This document shows, in pieces, positions 27,984 through 60,430 of a DNA stretch of 64,000 nt. The stretch lies in the IMG/VR virus record IMGVR_UViG_3300028833_002727; one strand, written 5' to 3'. This DNA is from a virus. Taxonomy: Duplodnaviria > Heunggongvirae > Uroviricota > Caudoviricetes. Each line of letters begins with the position of its first letter. Positions within the stretch are counted from its first letter, which is position 1. Below the pieces are notes generated by a model. That model had not been told where the DNA came from. It saw nothing but the letters and a program-made list of their open reading frames with translations, and ran no database searches. The position numbers were made by a program, and so were the translations under genes.

Positions 27984-28268
27984 TCATTTTATAAATCTGC
28001 TGCAAAGGTAATACATTTTTTTCAAATAACCAAATAAAGTTGAAATTATTTTAAAAAGTCCTATGACCCGGAGGTTACCGGACGTAGCTATCCCGGGAAG
28101 CTTTAATCTAATAATAAAAGAAATAAATAAAGAAAACTACAAAAAGAAATATAAAGGAACGTGCGTTATGTGCATATGTATGATGGATTAGAATTTTTTT
28201 CTTTTTTTAATTTTATCAAGAAAAAAATGTATATTTGTTATGAAATTTGAATTAAATCATAAAGCAAC

Positions 28269-30437: not shown

Positions 30438-31238
30438 ATGGGAAAAGTTAAAAAAGACAGTTTAGGTGACAGAATGAAAAGATACGAGGGTGTAAGCAAA
30501 AACACTCTTGTATCTCGTATGCCAGTAATTCTTAGATTGGATGGCTGTCACTTCCACACATTTACAAAAGGTTTTCAAAAACCATTTGATGATGTTTTAA
30601 TGAAATCAATGAAAGACACTATGAAGTATCTTTGTGAGAACATTCAGGGCTGTGTATTTGGTTACACTCAATCTGATGAAATCACATTGGTATTAGTGGA
30701 TTATCAGAACATCAATTCATCACCGTGGTTTGATAACGAGGTACAAAAAATGTGCTCTGTTGCATCATCTATGGCTGGTATGTTCTTTGCACGTACGTTT
30801 GCATACAACGTACTAATGTCAGAACTCAATGAAGATGATAAACTATTCAAGGTTTATAACAATGCAATTAACCGTGGTGCTTACTTCGATTGTAGAGCAT
30901 TTAACGTTCCACAGAGCGATGTTTGTAACTGTGTTCTATGGCGCCAGCAAGACGCAACAAGAAACTCAATACAAGCATTAGCACAAGCTAACTTTTCTCA
31001 AAAACAACTACATGGCTTGAGTTGTGATAAACTTCAAGATAAACTGTTTGTTGAGAAAGGCATTAACTGGAACAATTTGTCAACTGACAAGAAACGTGGT
31101 TCTGCATGTATTAAGCAGAAGTATTCATTCACTAACCAACATGGGGAGGAAACAATCAGAATGCGTTGGATTGTTGATGATGATATGCCTATTCTCACAC
31201 AAGATAGGGATTATATTGAGAAACTAATTTATTTTTAA
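30438..31238 (+). CDS. Thg1-like protein (tRNA-His guanylyltransferase family 3'-5' nucleotidyltransferase)
   Basis: VILRLDGCHFHTF, KPFDDVLMKSM and FGYTQSDEITLVL align with the Thg1 signatures VVVRLDGRNFHRF, KPND...LM and YGQSDEYSFVF. Confidence 0.8.
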   Translation: MGKVKKDSLGDRMKRYEGVSKNTLVSRMPVILRLDGCHFHTFTKGFQKPFDDVLMKSMKDTMKYLCENIQGCVFGYTQSDEITLVLVDYQNINSSPWFDNEVQKMCSVASSMAGMFFARTFAYNVLMSELNEDDKLFKVYNNAINRGAYFDCRAFNVPQSDVCNCVLWRQQDATRNSIQALAQANFSQKQLHGLSCDKLQDKLFVEKGINWNNLSTDKKRGSACIKQKYSFTNQHGEETIRMRWIVDDDMPILTQDRDYIEKLIYF

Positions 31239-34959: not shown

Positions 34960-34995
34960 TATTTGGTTATTTGAAAAAAAAGCAGTATCTTTGCA
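34960..34995 (+). promoter_or_regulatory. Bacteroidetes sigma-A-type promoter. It is copy 1 of a 5-copy ~40-nt repeat.
   Basis: TTTG at 34962-34965 and TAtcTTTG at 34986-34993. The wider sequence AAATATTTGGTTATTTGAAAAAAAAGCAGTATCTTTGCACCAG is shared. Confidence 0.6.
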
Positions 34996-35080: not shown

Positions 35081-35192
35081 GGGCTATTAGTTTAATGGAG
35101 TACGACGCGTCTATTAAAGAAGTTTAACTTCGACTCGTACGCTAGAATGCCAGGCAGTCCTGTTGAATGAGGTTCGATTCCTTGATAGTCCG
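35081..35192 (+). ncRNA. tRNA-like element A (112 nt). It has a 7-bp acceptor, a canonical T-arm and an unresolved core with an extra long hairpin.
   Basis: GGGCTAT pairs ATAGTCC. The T-arm is TGAGG-TTCGATT-CCTTG. The element lies ~70 nt downstream of promoter copy 1. Confidence 0.35.
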
Positions 35193-35217
35193 CAAAAAAA
35201 AATAAAAAAAATGCAAA

Positions 35218-35255
35218 AATATTTGGTTATTTGAAAAAATTGCCGTATCTTTGCA
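35218..35255 (+). promoter_or_regulatory. Promoter repeat copy 2
   Basis: TTTG at 35222-35225 and TAtcTTTG at 35246-35253. Confidence 0.55.
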
Positions 35256-35628
35256 CCAGATTTCAGTAATGAAGTCTACAAGTGGATAAGATTGAAACAA
35301 CGAAACATAGTCGACAGTTTCTATGTGGGGAGTGTTGGAAGAACAATAAATCCACACCAATGTGTTCTTTGACGTATTGATTGACTATAGAAAAAAGACA
35401 TGGAACGGTTGGGAATACCTCTCAACCACCAGATGCACCTGTTCCACGTTGTGAAACGCATTTGGGTTCGTCCTTTTATCTATTATATATATTATAAGGT
35501 GTAAGACTTGGCGAAATGTTGGGAATGAAAAGAAGCATTGATGAGTGTATATAATGATAATTGAAATAAACATTAAGGAATATATAACTGTAATTAAACC
35601 TTATAAAAAACTTAGTTCAGTTCAACTT

Positions 35629-36397
35629 GGCGCTGTGGTGGAATTGGTAGACACGAGGGACTTAATTCGTAATTGATTGATTATCAATACATTACAATTT
35701 GAGTGATACGGCACGAAAGTCCGTATTAGAACCTACCTAATTCGGTAGAAGTCCGTTGAGTATGTGTAGTATCACTTGTTGATGCAATAATAATGCGACA
35801 CTCATGTGTCACAGAGGCGGTTGAGAACCCGCCCGCATACAAATCCCATAGCATAAACAAAGATATGTGTGAGGGTGCTAAACAATAATGTATACGGAAA
35901 ATACCGAGCCAATATGCTATGCAAGGATGCTTCTGTTATAATAATCCATATCACTGTGGATGTTCGACGTTCACTCGTCGTGGAAAACAGTTTTAGACGT
36001 AAAAAGCGAAGTATAGTGATAGTGCGTAGAGACTTTACAGTAGGAACCTAAGTTAGAATTGTTATGTTAGAACGAAACTCGCGATCAATTGAGGGTATGT
36101 GTATTGCCGTTGATGATTGGTAACCATCTGATGCTTCGAGCATAAAAACGCCATGTTGCATGGAACGCACACAAATAGTAGAGGAGAGTGGCATAACAAC
36201 TTGCAAGATTCTAATATGGTTTAGAGCAAGTCCAGACTACAACAAACAACAAAACGGGTTTGACTCCCTTAGTAGGCTAACGACCCGCTGAACGAGAAAT
36301 CGTTATACGATGCTGTTGTTTGGCTATGGCAACATAGAGTAGTATGAAAATCCCTTGCCCAGTGATGGGCGTGCCGGTTCGAGTCCGGCCAGCGCTA
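35629..36397 (+). tRNA. tRNA-Leu(UAA) interrupted by an intron. Exons are 35629-35663 and 36347-36397.
   Basis: The 5' exon is GGCGCTG-TG-GTG-GAATTGGTAGA-CAC-G-AGGGA-CTT. The 3' exon is AAAA-TCCCT-TGCCCAGTGATGGGCG(long variable arm)-GCCGG-TTCGAGT-CCGGC-CAGCGCT-A73. The intron sits between U34 and A35. Confidence 0.7.
35664..36346 (+). ncRNA. Putative group I intron (~683 nt, no ORF) in tRNA-Leu(UAA)
   Basis: It lies at the canonical cyanobacterial/plastid trnL(UAA) position. The 5' exon ends in U and the intron ends in G. An IGS-like AAGTCC (35716-35721) is complementary to the exon GGACTT. A P7-like CAGACTA lies at ~36228. Confidence 0.5.
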
Positions 36398-36540
36398 CAA
36401 ACCTCCTTTCGTTAAAAACTCCTGGGTTTTCAGAGTTTCCAAATCTGGTTAGCAGAAGCCCTTTCTTTTTTTAAAAAATTAACAAAAAAATGTAATACTT
36501 TTCGAACTTTACAAGTATTTATTATAAAAGAAAGTAAATT

Positions 36541-37122
36541 ATGGATAGTATTAGATTTTGTAAAAAACATGGCGAATGTGAACACGTGTTAAGTTCTGGT
36601 AAGTGGCGTTGTAAAAAATGCCGTAGTGAAGCGGTACAAAAACGTAGAGATAAGATTAAACTAATGTCTATTGAATATAAGGGTGGAAAATGTGAAATAT
36701 GCGGATATGACAAATGTATAGATGCATTAGAATTTCATCATTTAAATCCAAATGAAAAAGATTTTGGTATTGCCGAAAAAGGGTACACACGTTCATTTGA
36801 TAAAGTAAAAGAAGAGTTAGATAAATGTATTTTAGTTTGTGCGAATTGTCACAGAGAAATACACCATAAAGATAAAAAAAGAAATGTTTATGAATTGTTA
36901 AATGAAATTCACAATAAACAAGAAAAAGCAATTACGTCTAAAAAAGAAAGAAAACAAATACCAACCATAGATGAATTTATATCAGTATTTAAAATGTATT
37001 TAAACTTTACACAAGTTGGAAAATATTTTGGTGTCACAGATAATTCTGTGAGGAAATGGTGTAAAAAATATGGTTTACCAATCCATACTAAAGAATTGTG
37101 TAGGTATATACATAACATGTAA
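36541..37122 (+). CDS. HNH homing endonuclease with a C-terminal HTH-like module
   Basis: GKCEICGY...EFHHLNPNEKD...CANCHREIHH. Conserved leader AAGTATTTATTATAAAAG upstream. The stop overlaps the tRNA-Asn start. Confidence 0.75.
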   Translation: MDSIRFCKKHGECEHVLSSGKWRCKKCRSEAVQKRRDKIKLMSIEYKGGKCEICGYDKCIDALEFHHLNPNEKDFGIAEKGYTRSFDKVKEELDKCILVCANCHREIHHKDKKRNVYELLNEIHNKQEKAITSKKERKQIPTIDEFISVFKMYLNFTQVGKYFGVTDNSVRKWCKKYGLPIHTKELCRYIHNM

Positions 37123-37199
37123 CCGTAGTCAAGTGGCCAACGACAGCAGACTGTTAATCTGCCCCGAAAGGTTCCCAGGTTCGAATCCTGGCGGTTGCG
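37119..37199 (+). tRNA. tRNA-Asn(GUU), atypical 12-nt variable region
   Basis: Acceptor GTAACCG/CGGTTGC. Anticodon arm GCAGA-CTGTTAA-TCTGC. T-arm CCAGG-TTCGAAT-CCTGG. Confidence 0.55.
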
Positions 37200-37730
37200 C
37201 AAAAATCCAACACACCATTCCGTAAGTGGTTGAGGTTGATGTCTTTGTAGAGTATAGCGGTTACGGACGTGATTTTCTACATCTGGCTAAAGGCAATAAT
37301 ATAGTGAAACCTGGTTATCACGGCGCCTAGAGTGCGCAATTCGGGTTCAAATCCTGGCTATTGACAATAAGAGAGGCATACAGCAAAACAAAAAACTATT
37401 TTTTTAAAAACATTGAATTTGGGTTTCAAAAACGTTATAAAAAAGTGCCTCTTGTACTCAAGTATATATAGCCGCCACCCCCAAGTACAAGGGGCACACC
37501 AGACTTACATGGTTATCTCTTTTCCTGGAGAGATTGTAAAATAGGGCATTAGGAGCGAGTTAGTTGGATCAGAACTTATCTGATTAGAGAATTGCCCGCA
37601 GTCTGCGAACGTAAATAAGCAGTAATGGTAGATATGGGGAGCACTGAATTACGTAATAGATGTTTCATGAAACTATCTAAAAGTGACAAGCAAGCCACTT
37701 TAGCGTGTGATAAAACCGCACAGGGCGCCG

Positions 37731-41489: not shown

Positions 41490-41564
41490 GGGGGATTAGC
41501 TCAGTCTGGCTAGAGCACCTGCTTTGCAAGCAGGGGGTCGTGGATTCGAATTCCACATCCTCCA
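41490..41564 (+). tRNA. tRNA-Ala(UGC)
   Basis: GGGGGAT...CCTGC-TTTGCAA-GCAGG...GTGGA-TTCGAAT-TCCAC-ATCCTCC-A. Confidence 0.85.
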
Positions 41565-41637
41565 CTTTTGTAAAAAAAAAGTTCGAAATAAGTATTTTTC
41601 CACACTAATGAAGTATTTATATATAAACAATAAAAAT

Positions 41638-42552
41638 ATGTATATAGATATTTCAACAGAAGAAAAAAAACAAGAATTTATACTACTTTTAAGTAGGTTT
41701 AAACGGAAAGGGGATATATTCAAATATTATCAAGTATCAGACAACACAAAAAATACAAGATATTTAAACAATATATTACAAACATTAGGTATAAACAATG
41801 AGTTTTTTTCCAAAAAAAGAAAAGAAAAGAAATTTTGTTTAAAGTGTGGTAAAGAATTAAAATATGGACAACATAAATTTTGTAGTAACAGTTGTTCGGC
41901 ATCTTACAACAATAAAAATAGAGAATATAGTGACGAAGTAAAACAAAAAATACGTGTTGGTGTTTTATTGTCTATGGGTATAACAGATATTGAAACATAT
42001 AGAAATACCAGCACAGAAAAAAAATGTGGGTACTGTGGTAGAATGTTCACTACAGCAAAAAAACATCAAAAATTTTGTTGTCAAGAATGTTCAAGAAGAA
42101 ACAGAAGATTACAAGAAATAAAAAATAAGGACGAAAGGGATATATATAAAAGTCAAACTAAATTCAATTTTAGTTTAAATGCTTATCCAGATGAGTTTGA
42201 TTTTTCCTTAATCAAAGAAAATGGTTGGTATCAAGCGACAAATCATGGTGATAACTTACGTGGCATTAGCAGAGATCATATGTTTTCAGTAGATGAAGGA
42301 TATAAACAAAATATAGACCCGTATTTAATTTCTCATCCAGCAAATTGTAAATTGATGAAACATGAAGACAACTTTAAAAAGAAAACAGAATGTTCAATAA
42401 CACTTAATGAACTAAAACAAAGAGTTAATGATTGGAATAAAAAATACGGAGTATATGAAAATAAAATAGATTATACAAAATTAGAAAAATTTAAGGAAAT
42501 GCAGGGTTCGAATCCCGCATCCTCCACAACTAATAATAATGTTAAACAATAA
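41638..42552 (+). CDS. HNH homing endonuclease with N-terminal CxxC zinc-finger repeats
   Basis: GISRDHMFSVDEGY...NCKLMKHEDN HNH motif. The start is placed after the conserved leader GAAGTATTTATATATAAAC. The 3' end of the ORF overlaps a degenerate copy of the tRNA-Ala 3' end. Confidence 0.7.
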   Translation: MYIDISTEEKKQEFILLLSRFKRKGDIFKYYQVSDNTKNTRYLNNILQTLGINNEFFSKKRKEKKFCLKCGKELKYGQHKFCSNSCSASYNNKNREYSDEVKQKIRVGVLLSMGITDIETYRNTSTEKKCGYCGRMFTTAKKHQKFCCQECSRRNRRLQEIKNKDERDIYKSQTKFNFSLNAYPDEFDFSLIKENGWYQATNHGDNLRGISRDHMFSVDEGYKQNIDPYLISHPANCKLMKHEDNFKKKTECSITLNELKQRVNDWNKKYGVYENKIDYTKLEKFKEMQGSNPASSTTNNNVKQ

Positions 42553-43655: not shown

Positions 43656-43740
43656 GCCACATTGGGACAGTTGGTCGACTCCGCTTGACTTGTAATCAAG
43701 ATGCTTATGCGCGCCGTCGGTTCGAATCCGGCATGTGGCT
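43656..43740 (+). tRNA. tRNA with anticodon UGU (Thr) but an 85-nt type-II-like body (15-nt variable region)
   Basis: GCCACAT/ATGTGGC. CTTGA-CTTGTAA-TCAAG. GTCGG-TTCGAAT-CCGGC. Confidence 0.5.
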
Positions 43741-44461
43741 CTAAATAAGGTTGACGGTAGATGTCATTAAATCATTCTACAGAACTAAATTTACTGAGTT
43801 CAGTACTCCTCACGGGGAGTTCAAAGTAAAAAGGGGTGCCGAGTCCTCTTGAGCCTTATGACAGTTTACGTTCAATATTCAGAGGGGAGTAGCTTTGAGC
43901 GAAATTAAAACATCTGACCCTTATTTGGTAGTTGGACGTTATCCTATATTGTCCGTCTGATGTTCATGCGCAGAACAGTCATTCGTAAAAATCGTAATCG
44001 AACACCTCTTTAGTTCGAAATGAAGGGTTGTGGTAAATCTAATGCTTAGTGTTACGGATAAGATAGCAACGCAGTATGCTAACAAGACTATGCTGCTCAT
44101 TTTTTGGACGCGGTTGTTTTATGGTTAAAAAACATCCTAGCCTCTTCGGAGGTTGAACCAATAGTATCACCCAACTCGCAGAGTTAGGACGCTAAACCAG
44201 TGGCGCGCCAAAGATATTCGTCAGGCGCTGAGCCTTTCGCCAGAAGGCAGTGGTGATATTTTTAATAGTCGCTCATCCGACTTATTTTCCTGGTTTTGTA
44301 TAAATCAGGTGGTGGCCAAGCCGTGGGTTTTTTACCAAATACCCTGCATCGTTTTTTGGGTTGGAGTTAAGCATTGGCAAGATTGTGATGCTCATTAGTG
44401 AATTCGGTTAAAGTCCGAAAGCTTCATCCCCCTTACAAAACGGTGTGAACTAATAAATTTT

Positions 44462-44726: not shown

Positions 44727-44812
44727 TGCCTCTTGGTGTAACTGGCTAGCACGTCAGATTTTGATTCTGGAGGGTCCGAAAGGCATTGGGGGTTCGAATC
44801 CCTCAGAGGCAA
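44727..44812 (+). tRNA. tRNA with anticodon UUG (Gln) and a long 18-nt variable region (86 nt)
   Basis: TGCCTCT/AGAGGCA. GTGT-AACTGGCTA-GCAC. TCAGA-TTTTGAT-TCTGG. GGGGG-TTCGAAT-CCCTC. Confidence 0.5.
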
Positions 44813-45120
44813 CAATAGTAGAACGTATAGTTTAATGATAGCGCGCTAAAACATGTAGAACAACGGCGTAGTAAGTCGTAGGTATAGGTTTGATTCCTTT
44901 TGCGCTCTGAATCAGTCACTGATGTTGTCAAGACTCGTTCTTGGCTGGGATATAAAAGCATTACACTGGTAAAATTTTTCTGAAAAAAACACAAAATATC
45001 ATATAAAAGTTGTATATTTAACTTGAAGAGAGACTTACAGCACAATTTAAGATTTCCACAATCTAAACCAAACGTCTCTTGACAAAAAATAAATACAATC
45101 AAAAAAAACAATCACAAGTA

Positions 45121-46238: not shown

Positions 46239-46255
46239 CAATGTAAAAATTGAAT

Positions 46256-46906
46256 ATGGGAAAAAGTAGACCTTATACGTGGAAATGTGATGTTTGTGGT
46301 GAAGTTTTTAAAACTAGAAAATTATTATATTCCCATTGGAATGAAAAACCAGAACACCATATTATTAAAACATCTGCAACTTATAAAGGTGAATATTATT
46401 GTAAATATTGTAATAAATTTTGTGATCAGTTAAATTCGTTACATTTACATGAAAAACATTGTATTTTAAATCCAAATCGCATTGATGGCGCATCAAAAGG
46501 TAGAACAATGACAGATGAGTTTAAGAAAAAACAATCTGAAAGAATGAAAGAACGCCATAAAAATGGGACAGCTGTTTCATTAGCACATCTAAGAAGTAAA
46601 GAAAAACCGTCATATCCAGAGCAGTGGCTAATGGAAGTAATAAAAAATGAAAATATTAATTCAGAGTATATTAGAGAATATAAATTTCACACATTTTCTT
46701 TAGATTTTTATTGGGAGAAAAAGAAAAAAGTTATTGAAATGGATGGTAGATTTCATAAAATTTCTGAATATCAAAAAGATTGTGATAAAAGGAAAGACGA
46801 ACAACTTAAAAAAGATGGAATAGATGAAATGAGAATTGATTGGGAATATTGTTATAAACATCCAAAAGAAGTAATTAAAAAAATAAAAGATTTTATTGGA
46901 GAGTAA
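46256..46906 (+). CDS. Homing-endonuclease-like protein with two C2H2 zinc fingers and a C-terminal DUF559/Vsr-like PD-(D/E)xK domain
   Basis: C2H2 fingers CDVCGEVFKTRKLLYSHWNEKPEHH and CKYCNKFCDQLNSLHLHEKH. LDFYWEKKKKVIEMDGRFH...DEMRIDWEY is Vsr-like. The stop overlaps the tRNA-Ser(GCU) start. Confidence 0.55.
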   Translation: MGKSRPYTWKCDVCGEVFKTRKLLYSHWNEKPEHHIIKTSATYKGEYYCKYCNKFCDQLNSLHLHEKHCILNPNRIDGASKGRTMTDEFKKKQSERMKERHKNGTAVSLAHLRSKEKPSYPEQWLMEVIKNENINSEYIREYKFHTFSLDFYWEKKKKVIEMDGRFHKISEYQKDCDKRKDEQLKKDGIDEMRIDWEYCYKHPKEVIKKIKDFIGE

Positions 46907-48292: not shown

Positions 48293-49057
48293 ATGAAAGT
48301 AAGTGATTTAAAAAAAGAAGAAGTAATTCACGCGTTACAACAAAGTAAAACAAAATTAGATTTTTTACATATTTTTGGTTATAAAAATAATGGAAGTGGT
48401 TATCGTTTTGTTGAAAATGTTATTAAATATTTTAAAATTAATATATACGATTATTTAGATAAAAAAATCACAGAAGACGAATATAATAAACACCCATCGT
48501 GCTGTAAATATTGCGGTAAAAAATTGAATTATAGTAAACGTAACAACAAATTCTGTTCGAAATCATGTTCTGCTTCGTATAATAATTCAACTAGGGTTCA
48601 TTCTATAACCTCAAGATTAAAAACTTCAAAAGCATTATCAGGGGAGAATGCAACGAAAGAAATTAAAGAATGTAAATTGTGCGGTAGAACATTTATAGGT
48701 GATAAAGATTTTTGTTCTGGTAAATGTAGAAAAACATTCGAAAATAATGATAAACTTGATAGATGGTTGAATGGCGAAAATTTTTTACGTGGAGCAACAC
48801 AAGTGCCTACTTTTGTGCGTAAATATTTAATGAATAAATATAATTGTCAATGTCAAAGATGTGGGTGGGGAGAAGAAAATCCATACACACATACGGTACA
48901 ATTAGAAATACATCATATTGATGGTGATTGCACAAATAATAAAAAAGAAAATTTACAATTATTATGCCCGAATTGTCATTCACTGACTGAAAATTTTGGT
49001 TCATTGAATAAAATGTCACATAGATTTCATAGGAAAAGAGTGACATTACAAAATTAA
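48293..49057 (+). CDS. HNH homing endonuclease
   Basis: CQCQRCGW...LEIHHIDGDCTNNKKENLQLLCPNCH. Conserved leader upstream. A tRNA follows 5 nt downstream. Confidence 0.8.
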   Translation: MKVSDLKKEEVIHALQQSKTKLDFLHIFGYKNNGSGYRFVENVIKYFKINIYDYLDKKITEDEYNKHPSCCKYCGKKLNYSKRNNKFCSKSCSASYNNSTRVHSITSRLKTSKALSGENATKEIKECKLCGRTFIGDKDFCSGKCRKTFENNDKLDRWLNGENFLRGATQVPTFVRKYLMNKYNCQCQRCGWGEENPYTHTVQLEIHHIDGDCTNNKKENLQLLCPNCHSLTENFGSLNKMSHRFHRKRVTLQN

Positions 49058-49440: not shown

Positions 49441-49478
49441 AATATTTGGTTATTTGAAATAAAAGTAGTATCTTTGCA
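49441..49478 (+). promoter_or_regulatory. Promoter repeat copy 3
   Basis: TTTG at 49445-49448 and TAtcTTTG at 49469-49476. Confidence 0.55.
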
Positions 49479-50111: not shown

Positions 50112-50804
50112 ATGGGTATGAGAACAAACAAAACAAAAGAAGATTTTATAGAAGCAGCAAAACATAGTTTTAGTATTGCTGGAATGTGTAGATTTCTTGG
50201 TTGGAAACCATCTGGAAGTTATAATGTGATTAAGAAATATATCCGCGAATACGATATTGATACATCACATTTTACAGGAAAGAAATGCGTTGGAAGAGTT
50301 GCATCTAACAAATTGAGTGCAATTGAGTATTCGAAAAGTTATTATTGTAAAAGTGCAACTTTACTGAAAAAACTTATTGAAGAAGGTTTGAAAGAACACA
50401 AATGTGAAAAATGTGGTAGAACAGAGTGGGAAGGTGATAAAATACCACTAGAACTACATCATATTGATGGAAATCATTATAATAATGTTTTTGATAACCT
50501 AATCGCGTTATGTCCAAATTGTCATGCACAAACAAATGGATATAAGGGGAGGAAAAAAAGATTTTGTTCTGAGTGTGGAAAAGAGATAACAAGATATAGT
50601 AAAACAGGGCTATGTAATGTATGTAATCATACAATAAATCAACGAAAAGTTGATTGGCCTACAAAAGAAGAATTAGAATTGTTACTGGAAACAAATAGTA
50701 TGGAAGCAATAGGAAGGCTTTACAGTGTTTCTGGCACAACAGTTAAAAAATGGAAAAACAAATATAATATAAAAATGAATAAGCGTAACAAGAATATTAA
50801 GTAG
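50112..50804 (+). CDS. HNH homing endonuclease with a C-terminal HTH-like module
   Basis: HKCEKCGRTEWEG...LELHHIDGNHYNN...LCPNCHAQT. Conserved leader AGAAGTATTTATTATATATAAAA upstream. Confidence 0.8.
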   Translation: MGMRTNKTKEDFIEAAKHSFSIAGMCRFLGWKPSGSYNVIKKYIREYDIDTSHFTGKKCVGRVASNKLSAIEYSKSYYCKSATLLKKLIEEGLKEHKCEKCGRTEWEGDKIPLELHHIDGNHYNNVFDNLIALCPNCHAQTNGYKGRKKRFCSECGKEITRYSKTGLCNVCNHTINQRKVDWPTKEELELLLETNSMEAIGRLYSVSGTTVKKWKNKYNIKMNKRNKNIK

Positions 50805-50916: not shown

Positions 50917-51095
50917 TGCGGGGTAGAGCAGAGGCAGCTCGTCAGGCTCATATAATGTGATAAGCATTAACAATCTTATCGAGACTATTGTTTAAAGTTC
51001 CGTATTATAATCGGACTGGAAATCAGCTGTAAGTGGGTTCGAAACCCATCAATAGTCCAACCTGAAGGTCGGTGGTTCGAGTCCACCCCCCGCAA
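50917..51095 (+). tRNA. tRNA(CAU) (Met or Ile2) carrying a ~107-nt insertion/intron in the anticodon loop (50954-51060)
   Basis: TGCGGGG/CCCCGCA acceptor. GAGC-AGAGGCA-GCTC D-arm. TCAGG-CTCATAA-[107 nt]-CCTGA. AGGTC. GGTGG-TTCGAGT-CCACC. The insertion carries its own hairpins. Confidence 0.5.
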
Positions 51096-51251
51096 CACTT
51101 TTGATGGTTTGAATTAGGAAATCACACGCAGAGCGCGAGGTGTCATGGAGCGCACTCTACCGTTCGAGATGGAGTACACGGCGTTTTTTCACGGAAAGTA
51201 TCCAATCCTAGGATTTTTGTTTACTGGAAGTGGTTGTACGGAACAACATTT

Positions 51252-51351
51252 GCCGAGATAGTGCAGTGGTTAGCATGTCGAATCAATACTGACGTGAAAA
51301 CGTTATAGGGGTTGCTCTTCGAAGACTGAGGTTCGATTCCTTGTTTTGGCT
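51252..51351 (+). ncRNA. tRNA-like element C (100 nt), same T-arm as element A
   Basis: GCCGAGA/TTTTGGC with two G-U pairs. GTGC-AGTGGTTA-GCAT. A 5-7 bp stem with the 9-nt loop AATCAATAC. A 31-nt variable region. TGAGG-TTCGATT-CCTTG. Confidence 0.35.
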
Positions 51352-51757: not shown

Positions 51758-52696
51758 ATGGAAGAAAACGATTTTATTGAAAAACTACGTAAAAATGGAG
51801 ATAAATGCCGCAATATGTACGAATTATGCCTTAAACTTGGGATTACTAGTATTGGTGGTGAGACATATCGTGAAATTAGAAGTATTGCTGAAGAAAATAA
51901 TATTACTTTAGTTTTTAATGGTTTATCAAAAAAGATAACACAAAAAAATCAAGAAAAAAAACTTGAAGAATTATTGTGTGATGATAGTGTTATAACTAGT
52001 AATAAGTTGAAAATGAAAATAATTGAGAATGGGTTAAAGCCATATAGATGTGAATGCTGTGGAAATACTGAATGGAACGGAAAACCAATACCGCTTGAAT
52101 TACACCACATTAATGGAAAACATAATGACAATCGTATAGAAAACCTTCAATTACTATGTCCAAATTGTCATGCACAAACAGATAACTATTGTGGAAAAAA
52201 TACTGGTAATAAAAAGAAATTAAGAAAGATAGTAAAGGTTAACAAAACAACTGGTAATTTATCTTATGTTAATAAACAATATTTGATTAATCTATTATAT
52301 TTACATCCAATTAAAGAGGTTGCAAAACAGTTGGAAATTAATGAGTATCGTTTAAAATATTGGTTAAAGAAATTAGAAATACATGTATCAAATAAGTGGA
52401 GGGAAGATTTACATAAAAATAACCCTGAAATATTTGGAATATGTGAATATTGTGGAAAACGATTTATAAAAAAAACATTAGAACAAAAATTTTGTAATCA
52501 AGAATGTAGTAAATTGTCAACTAGAAAAATAGAGATAACAAAGGAAAAACTGATACATAGTTTAAAAGAAAACAAAAGTTTTGTACAAACAGGAAAGATG
52601 TTTGGTGTAAGTGATAAATGTGTTATTAAATGGTGTGCAAGATTTGGTATACCAAATAGAAAAAAGGAAATGATAGAATACATTAAACGTATATAA
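51758..52696 (+). CDS. HNH homing endonuclease with a C-terminal HTH-like module
   Basis: YRCECCGNTEWNG...LELHHINGKHNDN...LCPNCHAQT. Leader AAGAAGTATTTATATAAAAAC. tRNA-Trp follows 5 nt after the stop. Confidence 0.8.
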   Translation: MEENDFIEKLRKNGDKCRNMYELCLKLGITSIGGETYREIRSIAEENNITLVFNGLSKKITQKNQEKKLEELLCDDSVITSNKLKMKIIENGLKPYRCECCGNTEWNGKPIPLELHHINGKHNDNRIENLQLLCPNCHAQTDNYCGKNTGNKKKLRKIVKVNKTTGNLSYVNKQYLINLLYLHPIKEVAKQLEINEYRLKYWLKKLEIHVSNKWREDLHKNNPEIFGICEYCGKRFIKKTLEQKFCNQECSKLSTRKIEITKEKLIHSLKENKSFVQTGKMFGVSDKCVIKWCARFGIPNRKKEMIEYIKRI

Positions 52697-52797: not shown

Positions 52798-52835
52798 AAT
52801 ATTTGGTTATTTGAAAAAAAAGCAGTATCTTTGCA
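52798..52835 (+). promoter_or_regulatory. Promoter repeat copy 4. It is near-identical to copy 1, including ~40 nt of downstream leader.
   Basis: TTTG at 52802-52805 and TAtcTTTG at 52826-52833. Shared ...GCACCAGAAATTGAA...AGATCAGTGATA. Confidence 0.6.
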
Positions 52836-54564: not shown

Positions 54565-54650
54565 GCAGGTGTCGCCTAGTGGACGATGGCGCCGGATTTC
54601 CAATCCGGAGTGGCGAAAGCCCCACGAGAGTTCGAATCTCTTCACCTGCT
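54565..54650 (+). tRNA. tRNA with anticodon UCC (Gly codons) on a type-II body (3-bp D-stem, 17-nt variable arm)
   Basis: GCAGGTG/CACCTGC. GCC-TAGTGGACGAT-GGC. CCGGA-TTTCCAA-TCCGG. GAGAG-TTCGAAT-CTCTT. Confidence 0.5.
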
Positions 54651-54669
54651 CATAAAATTTAAAAATAAC

Positions 54670-59259: not shown

Positions 59260-59623
59260 ATGGGGCTGTTTGGCTTTGACTGGAAGATTGATACGATTGT
59301 AAGCATGTAGAGAATGAGAAATCTCTTTAAAAGACTTGACAACACAATAAATGGCGAAAGAACTTACGCTCTTGCTGCTTAATCGAAGCACAGTAGATTA
59401 ACTTTTTCAGATGCAAGGCATTTGAGCAAGACATCACTCCAAGCCGAGTCTGTGGGCTTAATGGATATAGTGGTGCTGGAATACATAGAATAGATGTTAC
59501 ATGCTGTGATGTAATGTTGAAGTTTTAGCAGATAAGGTGACTTTTGATGGTTTGAGTCGTATAGTCGCTCGAAAATCTAAATCAAACTAAACATGTAGAA
59601 AGCGAAAATATTACTTGCAACAC

Positions 59624-59650
59624 ACGGGTTCGACTCCCGTCAGCTCCACC
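59624..59650 (+). other. Isolated tRNA 3' fragment (T-arm plus acceptor 3' strand plus CC)
   Basis: ACGGG-TTCGACT-CCCGT-CAGCTCC-A-CC. No complementary 5' half in the window. Confidence 0.4.
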
Positions 59651-59655
59651 TACAT

Positions 59656-60394: not shown

Positions 60395-60430
60395 TTTTTG
60401 GTTATTTGAAAAAAAAGTATTACCTTTGCA
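60395..60430 (+). promoter_or_regulatory. Promoter repeat copy 5, driving the TonB-dependent receptor gene
   Basis: TTTG at 60397-60400 and TAccTTTG at 60421-60428. It shares TTTGGTTATTTGAAAAAAAAG with copies 1-4. Confidence 0.6.

What the first reader, a model, noticed from the sequence alone, without database searches (positions are those of the whole stretch)
35629..36397. tRNA-Leu(UAA) split by a ~683-nt group-I-like intron at the canonical U34/A35 site
Both exons fold into a textbook type-II tRNA-Leu.
- Features: GTG/CAC D-stem, long variable arm, A73, anticodon UAA.
- The interruption falls exactly where cyanobacterial/plastid trnL(UAA) group I introns insert.
- The exon ends in U and the intron ends in G.
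- The intron has an IGS-like AAGTCC complementary to the exon GGACTT and a P7-like CAGACTA.
- It carries no ORF.
A group I intron in a phage tRNA gene is rare and deserves a careful look.
Basis: partly seen in the sequence, partly recalled or inferred. Interest (0 to 1): 0.7.

Follow-up and report, generated by a model that had tools for sequence, protein, structure and literature searches.

The report
Self-splicing intron splits phage leucine tRNA
A large tailed phage carries its gene for the leucine tRNA that reads UUA, its commonest leucine codon, split by a 683-base group I (self-splicing type) intron at the same spot as the classic cyanobacterial and chloroplast intron; the kind is known, but it is almost undescribed in phage tRNA genes, where it proves common.

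Summary

**The gene.** Exons 35629-35663 and 36347-36397 join into a canonical 86-nt tRNA-Leu(UAA). The 683 nt between them (35664-36346) sit between U34 and A35 and hold no ORF over 60 aa.

**Why it is a group I intron.**
- Rfam's group I model does not score it, even at E ≤ 10.
- It belongs to a family marked by AGUCCAGACUACAAC. Compact members of that family do pass Rfam's threshold (58-81 bits).
- The family's P1-P9 structure shows strong covariation.
- A model built from the family's 3' domain hits only this place in the window (46.7 bits, E ≈ 4e-11).
- All core helices form perfectly here: P1 with the U•G wobble, P2-P5, P7-P9.0, ωG, a GAAA loop in L2 and the CCUAAG/UAUGG receptor in P8.
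- The extra length lies in closed arms on P1, P5, P6, P8 and P9.

The internal guide sequence (IGS) is UUUGAGU (35698-35704), not AAGUCC. P7 is GACUU/AAGUC, not CAGACUA.

**Relatives.**
- Dozens of uncultivated phage contigs carry relatives, many with HNH homing endonucleases.
- Some bacterial MAG contigs carry them too.
- Lak megaphages carry one; their tRNA-Leu(UAA) gene holds a second group I intron in the D-loop.

**Verdict.** A new member of a known kind, in a host context the literature calls unreported. Interest is moderate.

The parts
35629..35663 (+). 5' exon of tRNA-Leu(UAA): acceptor 5' strand, D-arm, anticodon stem 5' strand, then C32 U33 U34
   Evidence: Nearly identical to exons 1a+1b of the Lak-C1 tRNA-Leu gene.
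35664..36346 (+). Group I intron, 683 nt, no ORF, IC3-like architecture
35698..35704 (+). Internal guide sequence UUUGAGU. GAG(U) pairs with exon (A)CUU 35660-35663 to form P1, with U35663•G35701 at the splice site. UUU pairs with the first three bases of exon 2 (36347-36349) to form P10.
   Evidence: GAG and its three P1 pairs are invariant in 10/10 relatives. The same AAUUUGAGUG is present in L245, L014 and Lak.
35664..35697 (+). P1 loop with an extra hairpin (roughly 35669-35695)
   Evidence: Absent from L245, L014 and Lak.
35705..35727 (+). P2 hairpin (AUACGG 35706-35711 / CCGUAU 35721-35726) capped by a GAAA tetraloop at 35715-35718
   Evidence: The GAAA in L2 is conserved in the family.
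35732..35736 (+). P3 5' strand CCUAC, pairing with GUAGG at 36040-36044; followed by J3/4 CUAA at 35737-35740
   Evidence: P3 shows changes on both sides at all 5 pairs in the family. Relatives L245 and L014 have CCUCC paired with GGAGG or GGAGA.
35741..35908 (+). P4 (UUCGGUA 35741-35747 / UACCGAG 35902-35908) enclosing P5 (UCCG 35752-35755 / CGGA 35895-35898) and a 139-nt P5 extension (35756-35894)
   Evidence: The two inner P4 pairs are changed on both sides relative to the family.
35909..36027 (+). P6 arm, a closed extended hairpin. It is the least certain part.
   Evidence: only (fold of the segment). Not tested by covariation.
36028..36044 (+). J6/7 (GUAGAG region), P7 5' strand GACUU (36031-36035) and P3 3' strand GUAGG (36040-36044)
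   Evidence: Second hit of model R1 at 36018-36130. All family-invariant bases of this stretch are kept.
36045..36221 (+). P8 arm: AACC 36045-36048 / GGUU 36218-36221. It carries the 11-nt GAAA-tetraloop receptor, CCUAAG 36047-36052 and UAUGG 36215-36219. It extends through UUAGAAU/AUUCUAA and UUGUUAUG/CAUAACAA into a 170-nt arm.
   Evidence: The outer arm is conserved and the inner helix covaries with L014. The meaning of the receptor motif rests on established knowledge of the Azoarcus intron.
36228..36232 (+). P7 3' strand AAGUC, which holds the presumed G-binding G36031-C36232 pair; J8/7 lies just upstream
   Evidence: P7 position 5 covaries: the family has A-U, the window U-A.
36236..36346 (+). 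P9.0 (ACUAC 36236-36240 / GUAGU 36339-36343) enclosing P9 (36243-36251 / 36314-36322, with a 62-nt insert) and P9b (CUAUG 36324-36328 / CAUAG 36333-36337, GCAA loop); then AUG ending in ωG at 36346
36347..36397 (+). 3' exon: A35 A36 A37 A38, anticodon stem 3' strand, long variable arm, T-arm, acceptor 3' strand and A73. No CCA is encoded.
   Evidence: About 82% identical to the Lak phage exon.
35222..35253 (+). Candidate promoter, TTTG-N20-TAnnTTTG type, one of six near-identical copies in the window. It lies about 375 nt upstream of the tRNA.
   Evidence: Function is inferred only.

Best explanation
The feature is a tRNA-Leu(UAA) gene of a large tailed phage, interrupted between U34 and A35 by an ORF-less group I intron with IC3-like architecture.

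**Proposed mechanism (inferred from the anatomy and from established group I chemistry; not shown here).**
1. The gene is transcribed as a precursor.
2. The intron folds around the P3-P8 core.
   - The GAAA loop of P2 docks into the CCUAAG/UAUGG receptor in P8.
   - The GNRA loop of P9b makes a second long-range contact.
   - The exons stay paired in the anticodon stem.
3. C32-U33-U34 of the tRNA pairs with GAG of the IGS to form P1, with a U•G wobble at the splice site.
4. A free guanosine bound in P7 attacks after U34.
5. ωG (36346) then takes the G site. P10 (UUU/AAA) aligns the 3' exon, and the 3'-OH of U34 attacks after ωG.
6. The exons are ligated into an 86-nt tRNA that reads UUA. UUA makes up 44% of leucine codons in the window's ORFs.

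**The extra length.** About 480 nt are peripheral arms on P1, P5, P6, P8 and P9. No endonuclease gene is present, so this copy is probably inherited vertically and no longer moves on its own.
For: **Exons.**
- They join into a canonical tRNA-Leu(taa).
- No other tRNA-Leu(UAA) is found by ARAGORN in standard mode or by Rfam.

**Core in the window.**
- All core helices form with only standard or G-U pairs.
- The unconstrained minimum-energy fold recovers P1, P2, P4, P5, P9.0, P9, P9b and the exon-exon anticodon stem, with z = -2.66.
- Each inserted segment folds as a closed arm.

**Family membership.**
- The signature 14-mer retrieved more than 119 IMG/VR loci.
- 65 of those loci are tRNA genes split in the anticodon loop.
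- About 43 are Leu(UAA) split at U34/A35.
- Compact members score 58-81 bits on Rfam RF00028, against a threshold of 50.

**Family structure.**
- 92.4% of cells are paired, 34 of 56 pairs change on both sides, and 0 of 500 shuffles reach this; slid controls give 32-40% paired.
- The 3' domain in 25 sequences is 96.7% paired.

**Model hits.**
- Model R1 (3' domain) hits 36185-36354 at 46.7 bits, E 3.9e-11. It is the only strong hit in the window.
- R1's second hit, 36018-36130, is the true 5' side of P7/P3'/P8.
- The only hit of model R2 (5' domain) is 35695-35740, in register (16.8 bits, E 0.12).

**Conservation.**
- With the P5 insert removed, 21 of 23 family-invariant 5' positions are kept. 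One of the two changes is compensated in P4.
- At least 63 of 70 invariants are kept overall.

**Bridging relatives.**
- L245, L014 and the Lak phages share the IGS, the core and the base of P8.
- They score on both models.

**Other.**
- UUA codon usage supports a functional need for this tRNA.
- Contigs from three datasets hold this region at 99.9-100% identity; the ENA contig spans the whole split gene, the JGI and Logan contigs only its 3' part.
Against: - Rfam's group I model gives no hit even at E ≤ 10.
- The 5'-domain model hit is weak (E 0.12) and covers only IGS-P2-J3/4.
- Neither model bridges the long inserts, so the full core alignment rests on hand-placed helices.
- E-values from the short calibration are rough.
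- P1 is only 3-4 bp, and its fourth pair competes with the anticodon stem.
- The P6 arm and the peripheral arms rest on single-sequence folds. Their sequences differ among the closest relatives.
- Splicing itself was not and cannot be shown here.
- The IC3 assignment rests on resemblance to the Azoarcus and Anabaena introns as I recall them, not on a subgroup model.
- ARAGORN with introns allowed proposes a poor second UAA-anticodon tRNA-like element at 35081-35193. The claim that this is the only tRNA-Leu(UAA) therefore holds for canonical genes only.
Confidence: 0.82

Rival explanations
1. It is a decayed intron that no longer splices. The large inserts would have crippled folding, and the split tRNA-Leu gene would be a pseudogene, with the phage relying on the host's tRNA-Leu(UAA).
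For: - The intron is 2-3 times longer than the compact relatives of 198-260 nt.
- Rfam misses it.
- It has no endonuclease, so nothing renews it by homing.
Against: - Every core helix is intact, and differences from the family are compensated in P3, P4, P7 and P8.
- At least 63 of 70 family-invariant bases are kept.
- Both exons are flawless.
- The inserts sit only at helix tips, where group I introns tolerate them.
- Relatives with 435-516-nt introns show the same pattern.
- UUA is the main leucine codon.
Confidence: 0.08
2. The intron is moved in trans. The free-standing HNH endonuclease gene 144 nt downstream of exon 2 (36541-37122) would cut intron-less tRNA-Leu alleles of co-infecting phages. 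Repair would then copy in the intron and the nuclease gene together (collaborative homing).
For: - The ORF is an HNH endonuclease (phrog_2255, E 2.5e-33) lying directly 3' of the split gene.
- The intron itself has no ORF.
- Relatives of this intron do carry HNH genes inside them.
Against: - The ORF has no homologue at E < 1e-8 in any of the roughly 125 viral loci that hold related introns.
- It resembles the intron-borne nucleases only weakly (best E 5e-7).
- Four more HNH genes and a Vsr-like nuclease gene are scattered through the tRNA array, so adjacency could be chance.
- The two array HNH genes that do resemble the intron-borne ones lie 14-16 kb away.
Confidence: 0.1
3. Splicing works but is kept for a purpose. 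It could gate the supply of the phage's main leucine tRNA (through GTP, Mg2+ or a phage factor). Or it could shield the gene or precursor from nucleases that recognise the anticodon region.
For: - The split tRNA reads the commonest leucine codon.
- The intron family sits in the anticodon loop of many phage tRNAs.
- The array is full of nucleases.
Against: - No direct evidence exists.
- The same placement is fully explained by the IGS GAG pairing with C32-U33-U34 and by the neutrality of a self-splicing insert.
- ORF-less copies of mobile introns commonly persist without any function.
Confidence: 0.07
4. The insert is not an intron but another kind of element (group II intron, insertion sequence or other mobile DNA) that happens to split the tRNA gene.
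For: None beyond the Rfam miss.
Against: - The complete group I core and a family-specific model hit are present.
- No ORF.
- No repeat of the insert elsewhere in the window.
- No group II hit.
Confidence: 0.01

Closest known systems
Group I intron of cyanobacterial and plastid tRNA-Leu(UAA) genes (Anabaena/Nostoc type; 'Leu.3Ug' in Williams 2020, bioRxiv 10.1101/2020.01.27.920355)
   Same: - Same gene.
- Same insertion point: CUU/a…g/AAAA, between U34 and A35.
- U at -1 and ωG.
- No ORF.
- The exons can stay paired in the anticodon stem.
   Different: - The host is a phage, not a cyanobacterium or plastid.
- 683 nt against roughly 250-300 nt.
- Four long peripheral arms.
- The 3' signature AGUCCAGACUACAAC was not seen in any cyanobacterial locus: all seven cyanobacterial 14-mer hits were chance matches.
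- Direct sequence comparison with a cyanobacterial intron was not possible with these tools.
Azoarcus tRNA-Ile(CAU) IC3 intron (structures cited in PMC3984707 and PMC13168695)
   Same: - As I recall its sequence, the same compact plan.
- P2 capped by GAAA, docking into a CCUAAG/UAUGG receptor in P8.
- A GNRA loop on P9, and a P9.0.
- Very similar J3/4-P4 (AAUUCGG), J6/7-P7 (GUAGAGACUA) and J8/7-P7 (AUAGUCCAG) strings.
   Different: - Different tRNA and a different position in the anticodon loop.
- About 205 nt with no peripheral extensions.
- The resemblance is recalled, not tested against the real sequence.
Bacterial tRNA group I introns at large (5,292 mapped in 21 tRNA/site types, Williams 2020; Patescibacteria survey PMC13011429)
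   Same: - Anticodon-loop insertion, mostly subgroup IC.
- The same signature family occurs in bacterial MAG contigs: Pyrinomonadaceae Thr(CGU), and Leu(UAA) in Bacteroidales, Oscillospiraceae and Ruminococcus. About 29 of 120 hits were of this kind.
   Different: - Those surveys covered bacterial and archaeal genomes, not phages.
- Some of the short MAG contigs may themselves be phage DNA.
Classical phage group I introns (T4 td, nrdB, sunY; Twort; SPO1; Bastille)
   Same: Phage host, self-splicing mechanism, frequent association with HNH or GIY-YIG homing endonucleases.
   Different: - They interrupt protein-coding genes and are mostly subgroup IA2 (PMC11835236).
- The 2014 review states that all phage introns known then were in protein genes despite many phage tRNA genes (PMC3984707).
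'Enigmatic' tRNA introns of Lak megaphages (Devoto 2019, PMC6784885)
   Same: - Huge phages with tRNA arrays, probably infecting Bacteroidota.
- The Lak genomes contain a homologue of this very intron.
   Different: - The introns named in the passages I read were in tRNA-Tyr(GTA) and tRNA-Thr(TGT), and were found with tRNAscan's eukaryotic settings.
- tRNA-Leu does not occur in that paper's main text. Its Supplementary Table 6 was not read.
- ARAGORN finds no tRNA at the doubly split tRNA-Leu(UAA) locus in Lak-C1 or Lak-B1.

Membership tests
Group I intron | Conserved core of paired regions P3-P8, including the P3/P7 pseudoknot | tested here: met
   All helices form perfectly in the window. 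The same helices covary in the family.
Group I intron | 5' splice site after a U that forms a U•G wobble with the IGS in P1 | tested here: met
   U35663•G35701. The pair is U-G in 10/10 relatives.
Group I intron | Intron ends in G (ωG); P10 can align the 3' exon | tested here: met
   G36346. UUU 35698-35700 pairs with AAA 36347-36349. …GUAGUAxG is conserved in the family.
Group I intron | Guanosine-binding G-C pair in P7 | tested here: inconclusive
   The pair G36031-C36232 is present and invariant in the family. That it is the G site is inferred by position only.
Group I intron | Match to the curated Rfam model RF00028 | tested here: not met
   No hit at the gathering score or at E ≤ 10. Compact relatives do pass at 58-81 bits. 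A family-specific model hits the window at 46.7 bits. The miss is attributed to the long inserts.
Group I intron | Guanosine-dependent self-splicing | not testable with these tools
   Needs in vitro transcription and splicing, or RNA data.
Subgroup IC3 (bacterial tRNA introns) | Compact IC3 plan: P2 present, no P2.1, L2 tetraloop docking into a P8 receptor, L9 GNRA loop, P9.0 | tested here: inconclusive
   The motifs are present: GAAA 35715-35718, CCUAAG/UAUGG in P8, and GCAA 36329-36332. No subgroup-specific model was available, so the assignment rests on recalled Azoarcus and Anabaena features.
tRNA-Leu(UAA) intron lineage of cyanobacteria and plastids | Insertion between U34 and A35 of tRNA-Leu(UAA) | tested here: met
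tRNA-Leu(UAA) intron lineage of cyanobacteria and plastids | Common descent shown by sequence or phylogeny with cyanobacterial and plastid introns | not tested
   No authentic cyanobacterial intron was obtained. The cyanobacterial 14-mer hits were chance matches.
Mobile (homing) group I intron | Intron-encoded homing endonuclease | tested here: not met
   No ORF over 60 aa. No remnant of the HNH genes carried by relatives.

The most novel reading that the evidence does not exclude
Phages, not bacteria, would be the main mobile reservoir of the anticodon-loop IC3 introns.
- The IGS GAG needs only C32-U33-U34. HNH-armed copies in phage tRNA arrays could therefore hop between any tRNAs with U34; Leu-UAA and Ser-UGA hosts are verified here, and Lys-UUU and Arg-UCU are read by hand from ARAGORN calls.
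- They could also pass into host genomes.
- The 'ancient' tRNA-Leu(UAA) intron of cyanobacteria and plastids would then be one captured offshoot.
- The long ORF-less arms of the window's copy would be what remains after such an element settles.
Probability: 0.2. Interest if true: 0.7.

Novelty: new member of a known kind. Interest (0 to 1): 0.5.

Why it matters
- **A gap in what is described.** The 2014 review of bacterial group I introns states that every phage intron known then sits in a protein gene (PMC3984707). The 2019 Lak megaphage paper says introns in phage tRNAs had not been reported before and calls its own 'enigmatic' (PMC6784885). This window shows a clear group I intron in a phage tRNA.
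- **It is one of many.** Following it up shows a family that splits many tRNA genes in uncultivated phages.
- **Annotation is affected.**
  - Standard tools miss these genes. ARAGORN in default mode skips the gene, and Rfam's model gives nothing for the intron.
  - The isoacceptor for the commonest leucine codon therefore looks absent from such genomes, including the published Lak genomes.
  - Phage tRNA repertoires and codon-usage arguments built on them are biased as a result.
- **An old question becomes testable.** Phage-borne copies, many carrying HNH endonucleases, offer a concrete vehicle for horizontal spread of the tRNA-Leu(UAA) intron.
- **A possible tool.** A 683-nt ORF-less variant with four long arms is also a natural test case for how much peripheral RNA an IC3 core tolerates.

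Tried and rejected
- **Rfam on the window.** Nothing for the intron, either at gathering thresholds or at E ≤ 10 on 35400-36600. Only chance-level hits to unrelated families appeared.
- **GenBank phages.**
  - Megablast of the region found no match.
  - Sensitive blastn matched only the 3' exon and intron end in the Lak phages.
  - A compact family member finds only two uncultured phage records, with nothing annotated there.
- **One full-length covariance model.** Neither bridges the 139-170-nt inserts.
- **Relatives of this phage in IMG/VR.** Neither the upstream protein nor an exact 24-mer found any.
- **Look-up of the HNH protein.** It returned only near-identical contigs, so no intron-less allele was found.
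- **Remnant of an endonuclease gene in the intron.** No significant match.
- **Conserved linkage of the downstream HNH gene with the intron.** None found.
- **Bacterial genome scan with the 14-mer.** Three quarters of the hits were chance matches, including all seven cyanobacterial ones.
- **Authentic Azoarcus or Anabaena sequence.** Attempts to fetch one from papers failed.
- **ARAGORN 'suppressor' calls among relatives.** I read these as boundary artefacts. By my own hand parsing, with U-1 and ωG the anticodons are ordinary: UCU for L031 and UUU for L098.
- **MAFFT --add with --keeplength.** It misaligned the 5' half of the trimmed core, so the alignment was redone per domain.
- **Literature.** Eight completed searches and one rejected query (rejected) found no description of group I introns in phage tRNA genes. 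Subscription-only papers are not covered.
Full report
**1. The observation**

GGCGCTGTGGTGGAATTGGTAGACACGAGGGACTT occupies 35629-35663. AAAATCCCTTGCCCAGTGATGGGCGTGCCGGTTCGAGTCCGGCCAGCGCTA occupies 36347-36397. The two are 683 nt apart.

- ARAGORN reads the joined exons as tRNA-Leu(taa), with a 3-bp GUG/CAC D-stem, a long variable arm and A73.
- ARAGORN in standard mode finds 33 tRNAs and a tmRNA in the window but not this gene.
- With long introns allowed it calls 35629-36398 as tRNA-Leu(taa) i(36,683).
- The exon ends in U and the intron ends in G.
- The longest ORF inside is 60 aa.

**2. The standard test fails, and why**

Rfam 15 gives no group I hit on the window at gathering thresholds. 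It gives none at E ≤ 10 on 35400-36600 either.

- Sensitive blastn against GenBank phages matched only the last 11 nt of the intron plus the 3' exon, in the Lak megaphages.
- Reading those loci showed a homologous tRNA-Leu(UAA) gene with two interruptions.
- The first interruption, in the D-loop, scores 41.8 bits (E 4e-9) on Rfam's group I model.
- The second, after U34, shares three strings with the window's intron: AAUUUGAGUG near the 5' end, GAGACUxx…xxAGUCCAGACUACAAC, and the ending AGAGUAGUAxG.

**3. A large family**

- In 65 of them the motif lies inside a tRNA gene split in the anticodon loop.
- About 43 are tRNA-Leu(UAA) split exactly as CUU|…G|AAAA, with introns of 198 to 1087 nt.
- Five compact members tested pass Rfam RF00028: L077 80.8, L109 70.9, L064 68.1, L030 65.5 and L017 58.3 bits, against a threshold of 50. 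The family is therefore group I by the curated model.
- I placed P1-P9 on an alignment of ten compact members. 92.4% of cells pair and 34 of 56 pairs change on both sides. No shuffle out of 500 reaches this. Sliding the partners drops pairing to 32-40%.
- P3 changes on both sides at all five pairs.
- The 3' domain in 25 sequences is 96.7% paired.

**4. The window's intron belongs to this family**

*Model hits*
- A covariance model of the 3' domain (R1) gives one strong hit in the 64-kb window: 36185-36354, 46.7 bits, E about 4e-11.
- A second hit at 36018-36130 (E 0.08) is the true J6/7-P7-P3'-P8 5' side. A 170-nt insert in P8 separates the two, and the model cannot span it.
- A model of the 5' domain (R2) has a single hit in the window, at 35695-35740. 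It lies in register on IGS-P2-J3/4 but is weak, at 16.8 bits and E 0.12, because a 139-nt insert splits P4/P5.

*Helices placed by hand, all perfectly paired*

| Element | 5' strand | 3' strand |
|---|---|---|
| P1 | 35660-35663 | 35701-35704 (U35663•G35701) |
| P2 | 35706-35711 | 35721-35726 |
| P3 | 35732-35736 | 36040-36044 |
| P4 | 35741-35747 | 35902-35908 |
| P5 | 35752-35755 | 35895-35898 |
| P7 | 36031-36035 | 36228-36232 |
| P8 | 36045-36048 | 36218-36221 |
| P9.0 | 36236-36240 | 36339-36343 |
| P9 | 36243-36251 | 36314-36322 |
| P9b | 36324-36328 | 36333-36337 |

ωG is 36346. P10 is UUU 35698-35700 with AAA 36347-36349.

*Folding*
- The unconstrained minimum-energy fold recovers most of these helices and the exon-exon anticodon stem, with z = -2.66.
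- Each insert folds as a closed arm.

*Conservation*
- With the P5 insert removed, 21 of 23 family-invariant positions of the 5' domain are kept. One of the two changes is compensated across P4.
- At least 63 of 70 invariants are kept overall. Six of the seven listed misses fall in the 5' half, which that alignment misplaced.

*Tertiary-contact motifs known from the Azoarcus intron (established knowledge, recalled)*
- GAAA on P2.
- The 11-nt receptor CCUAAG/UAUGG in P8.
- A GNRA loop on P9b.

**5. Closest relatives**

A pattern shared by the window and Lak brought in two further loci.
- L245: tRNA-Leu(UAA) with a 516-nt intron.
- L014: a 435-nt intron at the same 34/35 position in what I read by hand as tRNA-Ser(UGA). 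ARAGORN called no tRNA there.

These share the core strings and the base of the P8 arm with the window. P3 and the inner P8 helix covary. The arms themselves differ in sequence and length. They score on both models, as do the Lak introns. This bridges the window to the compact family.

The IGS GAG pairs with C32-U33-U34. That would explain why Leu-UAA and Ser-UGA, both verified here, can host the family. Lys-UUU and Arg-UCU are my hand reading of the ARAGORN calls. This is inference.

**6. Context**

- The window belongs to a large tailed phage.
  - A 1606-aa protein has tail-fibre homology.
  - It carries a Thg1-like enzyme, more than 35 tRNAs and a tmRNA.
  - Most large ORFs are unknown.
- A contig of 161 kb from ENA holds the same region at 99.9% identity. 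Two other datasets hold fragments that are 100% identical over the 3' part of the intron, exon 2 and the HNH gene.
- Six copies of a TTTG-N20-TAnnTTTG element fit the Bacteroidota promoter consensus. One lies 375 nt upstream of the gene. This agrees with the Lak link to Prevotella.
- UUA is 44% of leucine codons in 16 ORFs. The split gene is the only canonical tRNA-Leu(UAA) found.
- An HNH endonuclease gene lies 144 nt downstream. It is not linked to the intron in relatives, and it resembles the intron-borne nucleases only weakly.
- Larger family members carry HNH genes of 147-236 aa in P1 or P6. Two free-standing HNH genes in the window's array (50112-50804 and 51758-52696) are 34-53% identical to them.

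**7. Mechanism**

The standard two-step group I pathway, as laid out under the best explanation, is inferred from the anatomy.

I consider a splicing-dead relic unlikely because the core is intact and its differences from the family are compensated. Trans-homing by the neighbouring HNH and a regulatory or protective role cannot be excluded, but nothing supports them.

**8. Comparison and novelty**

- The kind is known: anticodon-loop group I introns of bacterial tRNAs. They include the classic tRNA-Leu(UAA) intron at this very site, and 5,292 were mapped in bacteria (bioRxiv 10.1101/2020.01.27.920355).
- The same signature family occurs in bacterial MAG contigs.
- What is new is the host context and the form.
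  - The literature I could search says phage introns are all in protein genes (PMC3984707).
  - It also says that tRNA introns in phages were unreported before the short 'enigmatic' ones of Lak (PMC6784885).
  - I found no paper describing group I introns in phage tRNA genes.
  - GenBank phage records do not annotate them.
- The window's copy is an unusually long ORF-less variant that the curated model misses.

I file it as a new member of a known kind, of moderate interest.

Noticed in passing
L001 (Lak-C1, MK250029.1) 1829-2565; also L002, L022, L246-L248: The published Lak megaphage genomes hold a tRNA-Leu(UAA) gene with two group I introns. One is 308 nt and lies in the D-loop between U20 and A21 (L001 1849-2156; Rfam RF00028 41.8 bits, R1 29 bits). 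The other is 340 nt and lies at U34/A35 (2172-2511; R1 66.7 bits). Joining the three exons gives a perfect tRNA-Leu(taa). ARAGORN finds no tRNA there. None of the papers I read describes a D-loop site for a group I intron.
   Followed up: partly
L003-L121, L245 (IMG/VR contigs): The intron family marked by AGUCCAGACUACAAC splits many phage tRNA genes at position 34/35. Most are Leu-UAA and one is Ser-UGA (L014, my hand reading); by my hand reading of the ARAGORN calls others are Lys-UUU and Arg-UCU. The hosts I checked carry C32-U33-U34, which pairs with the IGS GAG. Introns of 700-900 nt carry HNH endonuclease genes, some placed right after the 5' splice site in the P1 loop.
   Followed up: partly
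window 50917-51096: A tRNA with acceptor UGCGGGG/CCCCGCA, which I read as CAU-anticodon, carries a 107-nt insert in the anticodon loop. The insert itself contains a tRNA-like 3' half (T-arm GUGGGUUCGAAACCCAU, with GACUAUU/AAUAGUC pairing). It recalls the Lak 'intron that may encode a tRNA'. Neither my models nor Rfam see a group I core there.
   Followed up: no
window 51252-51351: A 100-nt tRNA (Rfam 44.9 bits) with a roughly 28-nt insert in the anticodon loop. ARAGORN reads Ala(tgc), but the identity is uncertain. It is too short to be a group I intron.
   Followed up: no
window 37119-37200, 43656-43741, 44727-44813, 54565-54651: tRNA-Asn(gtt), Thr(tgt), Gln(ttg) and Gly(tcc) all carry long variable arms; three of the four are closed by a GAAA loop. 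This is unusual for these isotypes.
   Followed up: no
window 36541-37122, 41524-42552, 48293-49057, 50112-50804, 51758-52696, 46250-46906: Five free-standing HNH endonuclease genes and one DUF559/Vsr-like nuclease gene sit between the tRNA genes. Those at 50112 and 51758 are 34-53% identical to HNH genes carried inside related tRNA-Leu introns of other phages.
   Followed up: partly
window 28003-28034 (-), 34962-34993, 35222-35253, 49445-49476, 52802-52833, 60397-60428: Six near-identical copies of TTTGGTTATTTGAAAAAAAAGCAGTATCTTTG fit the Bacteroidota promoter pattern TTTG…TAnnTTTG. The pattern has 10 matches in the window against 4.2 expected by chance. This suggests a Bacteroidota host.
   Followed up: partly
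window 35081-35193: A tRNA-like element with good acceptor and T arms (GGGCUAU/AUAGUCC), a very long extra region and a poor anticodon stem. It lies just downstream of one promoter copy. Rfam does not call it.
   Followed up: no
window 59262-59651 and 30438-31238: The phage encodes a tmRNA (Rfam 114 bits, tag GERTYALAA) and a Thg1-like tRNA-His guanylyltransferase (phrog_4717, E 1e-88).
   Followed up: no
L017 3148-3722; L084 2879-3444: ROOL RNAs (Rfam 323 and 283 bits) lie inside the tRNA arrays of two phage contigs that also carry a split tRNA-Leu(UAA).
   Followed up: no
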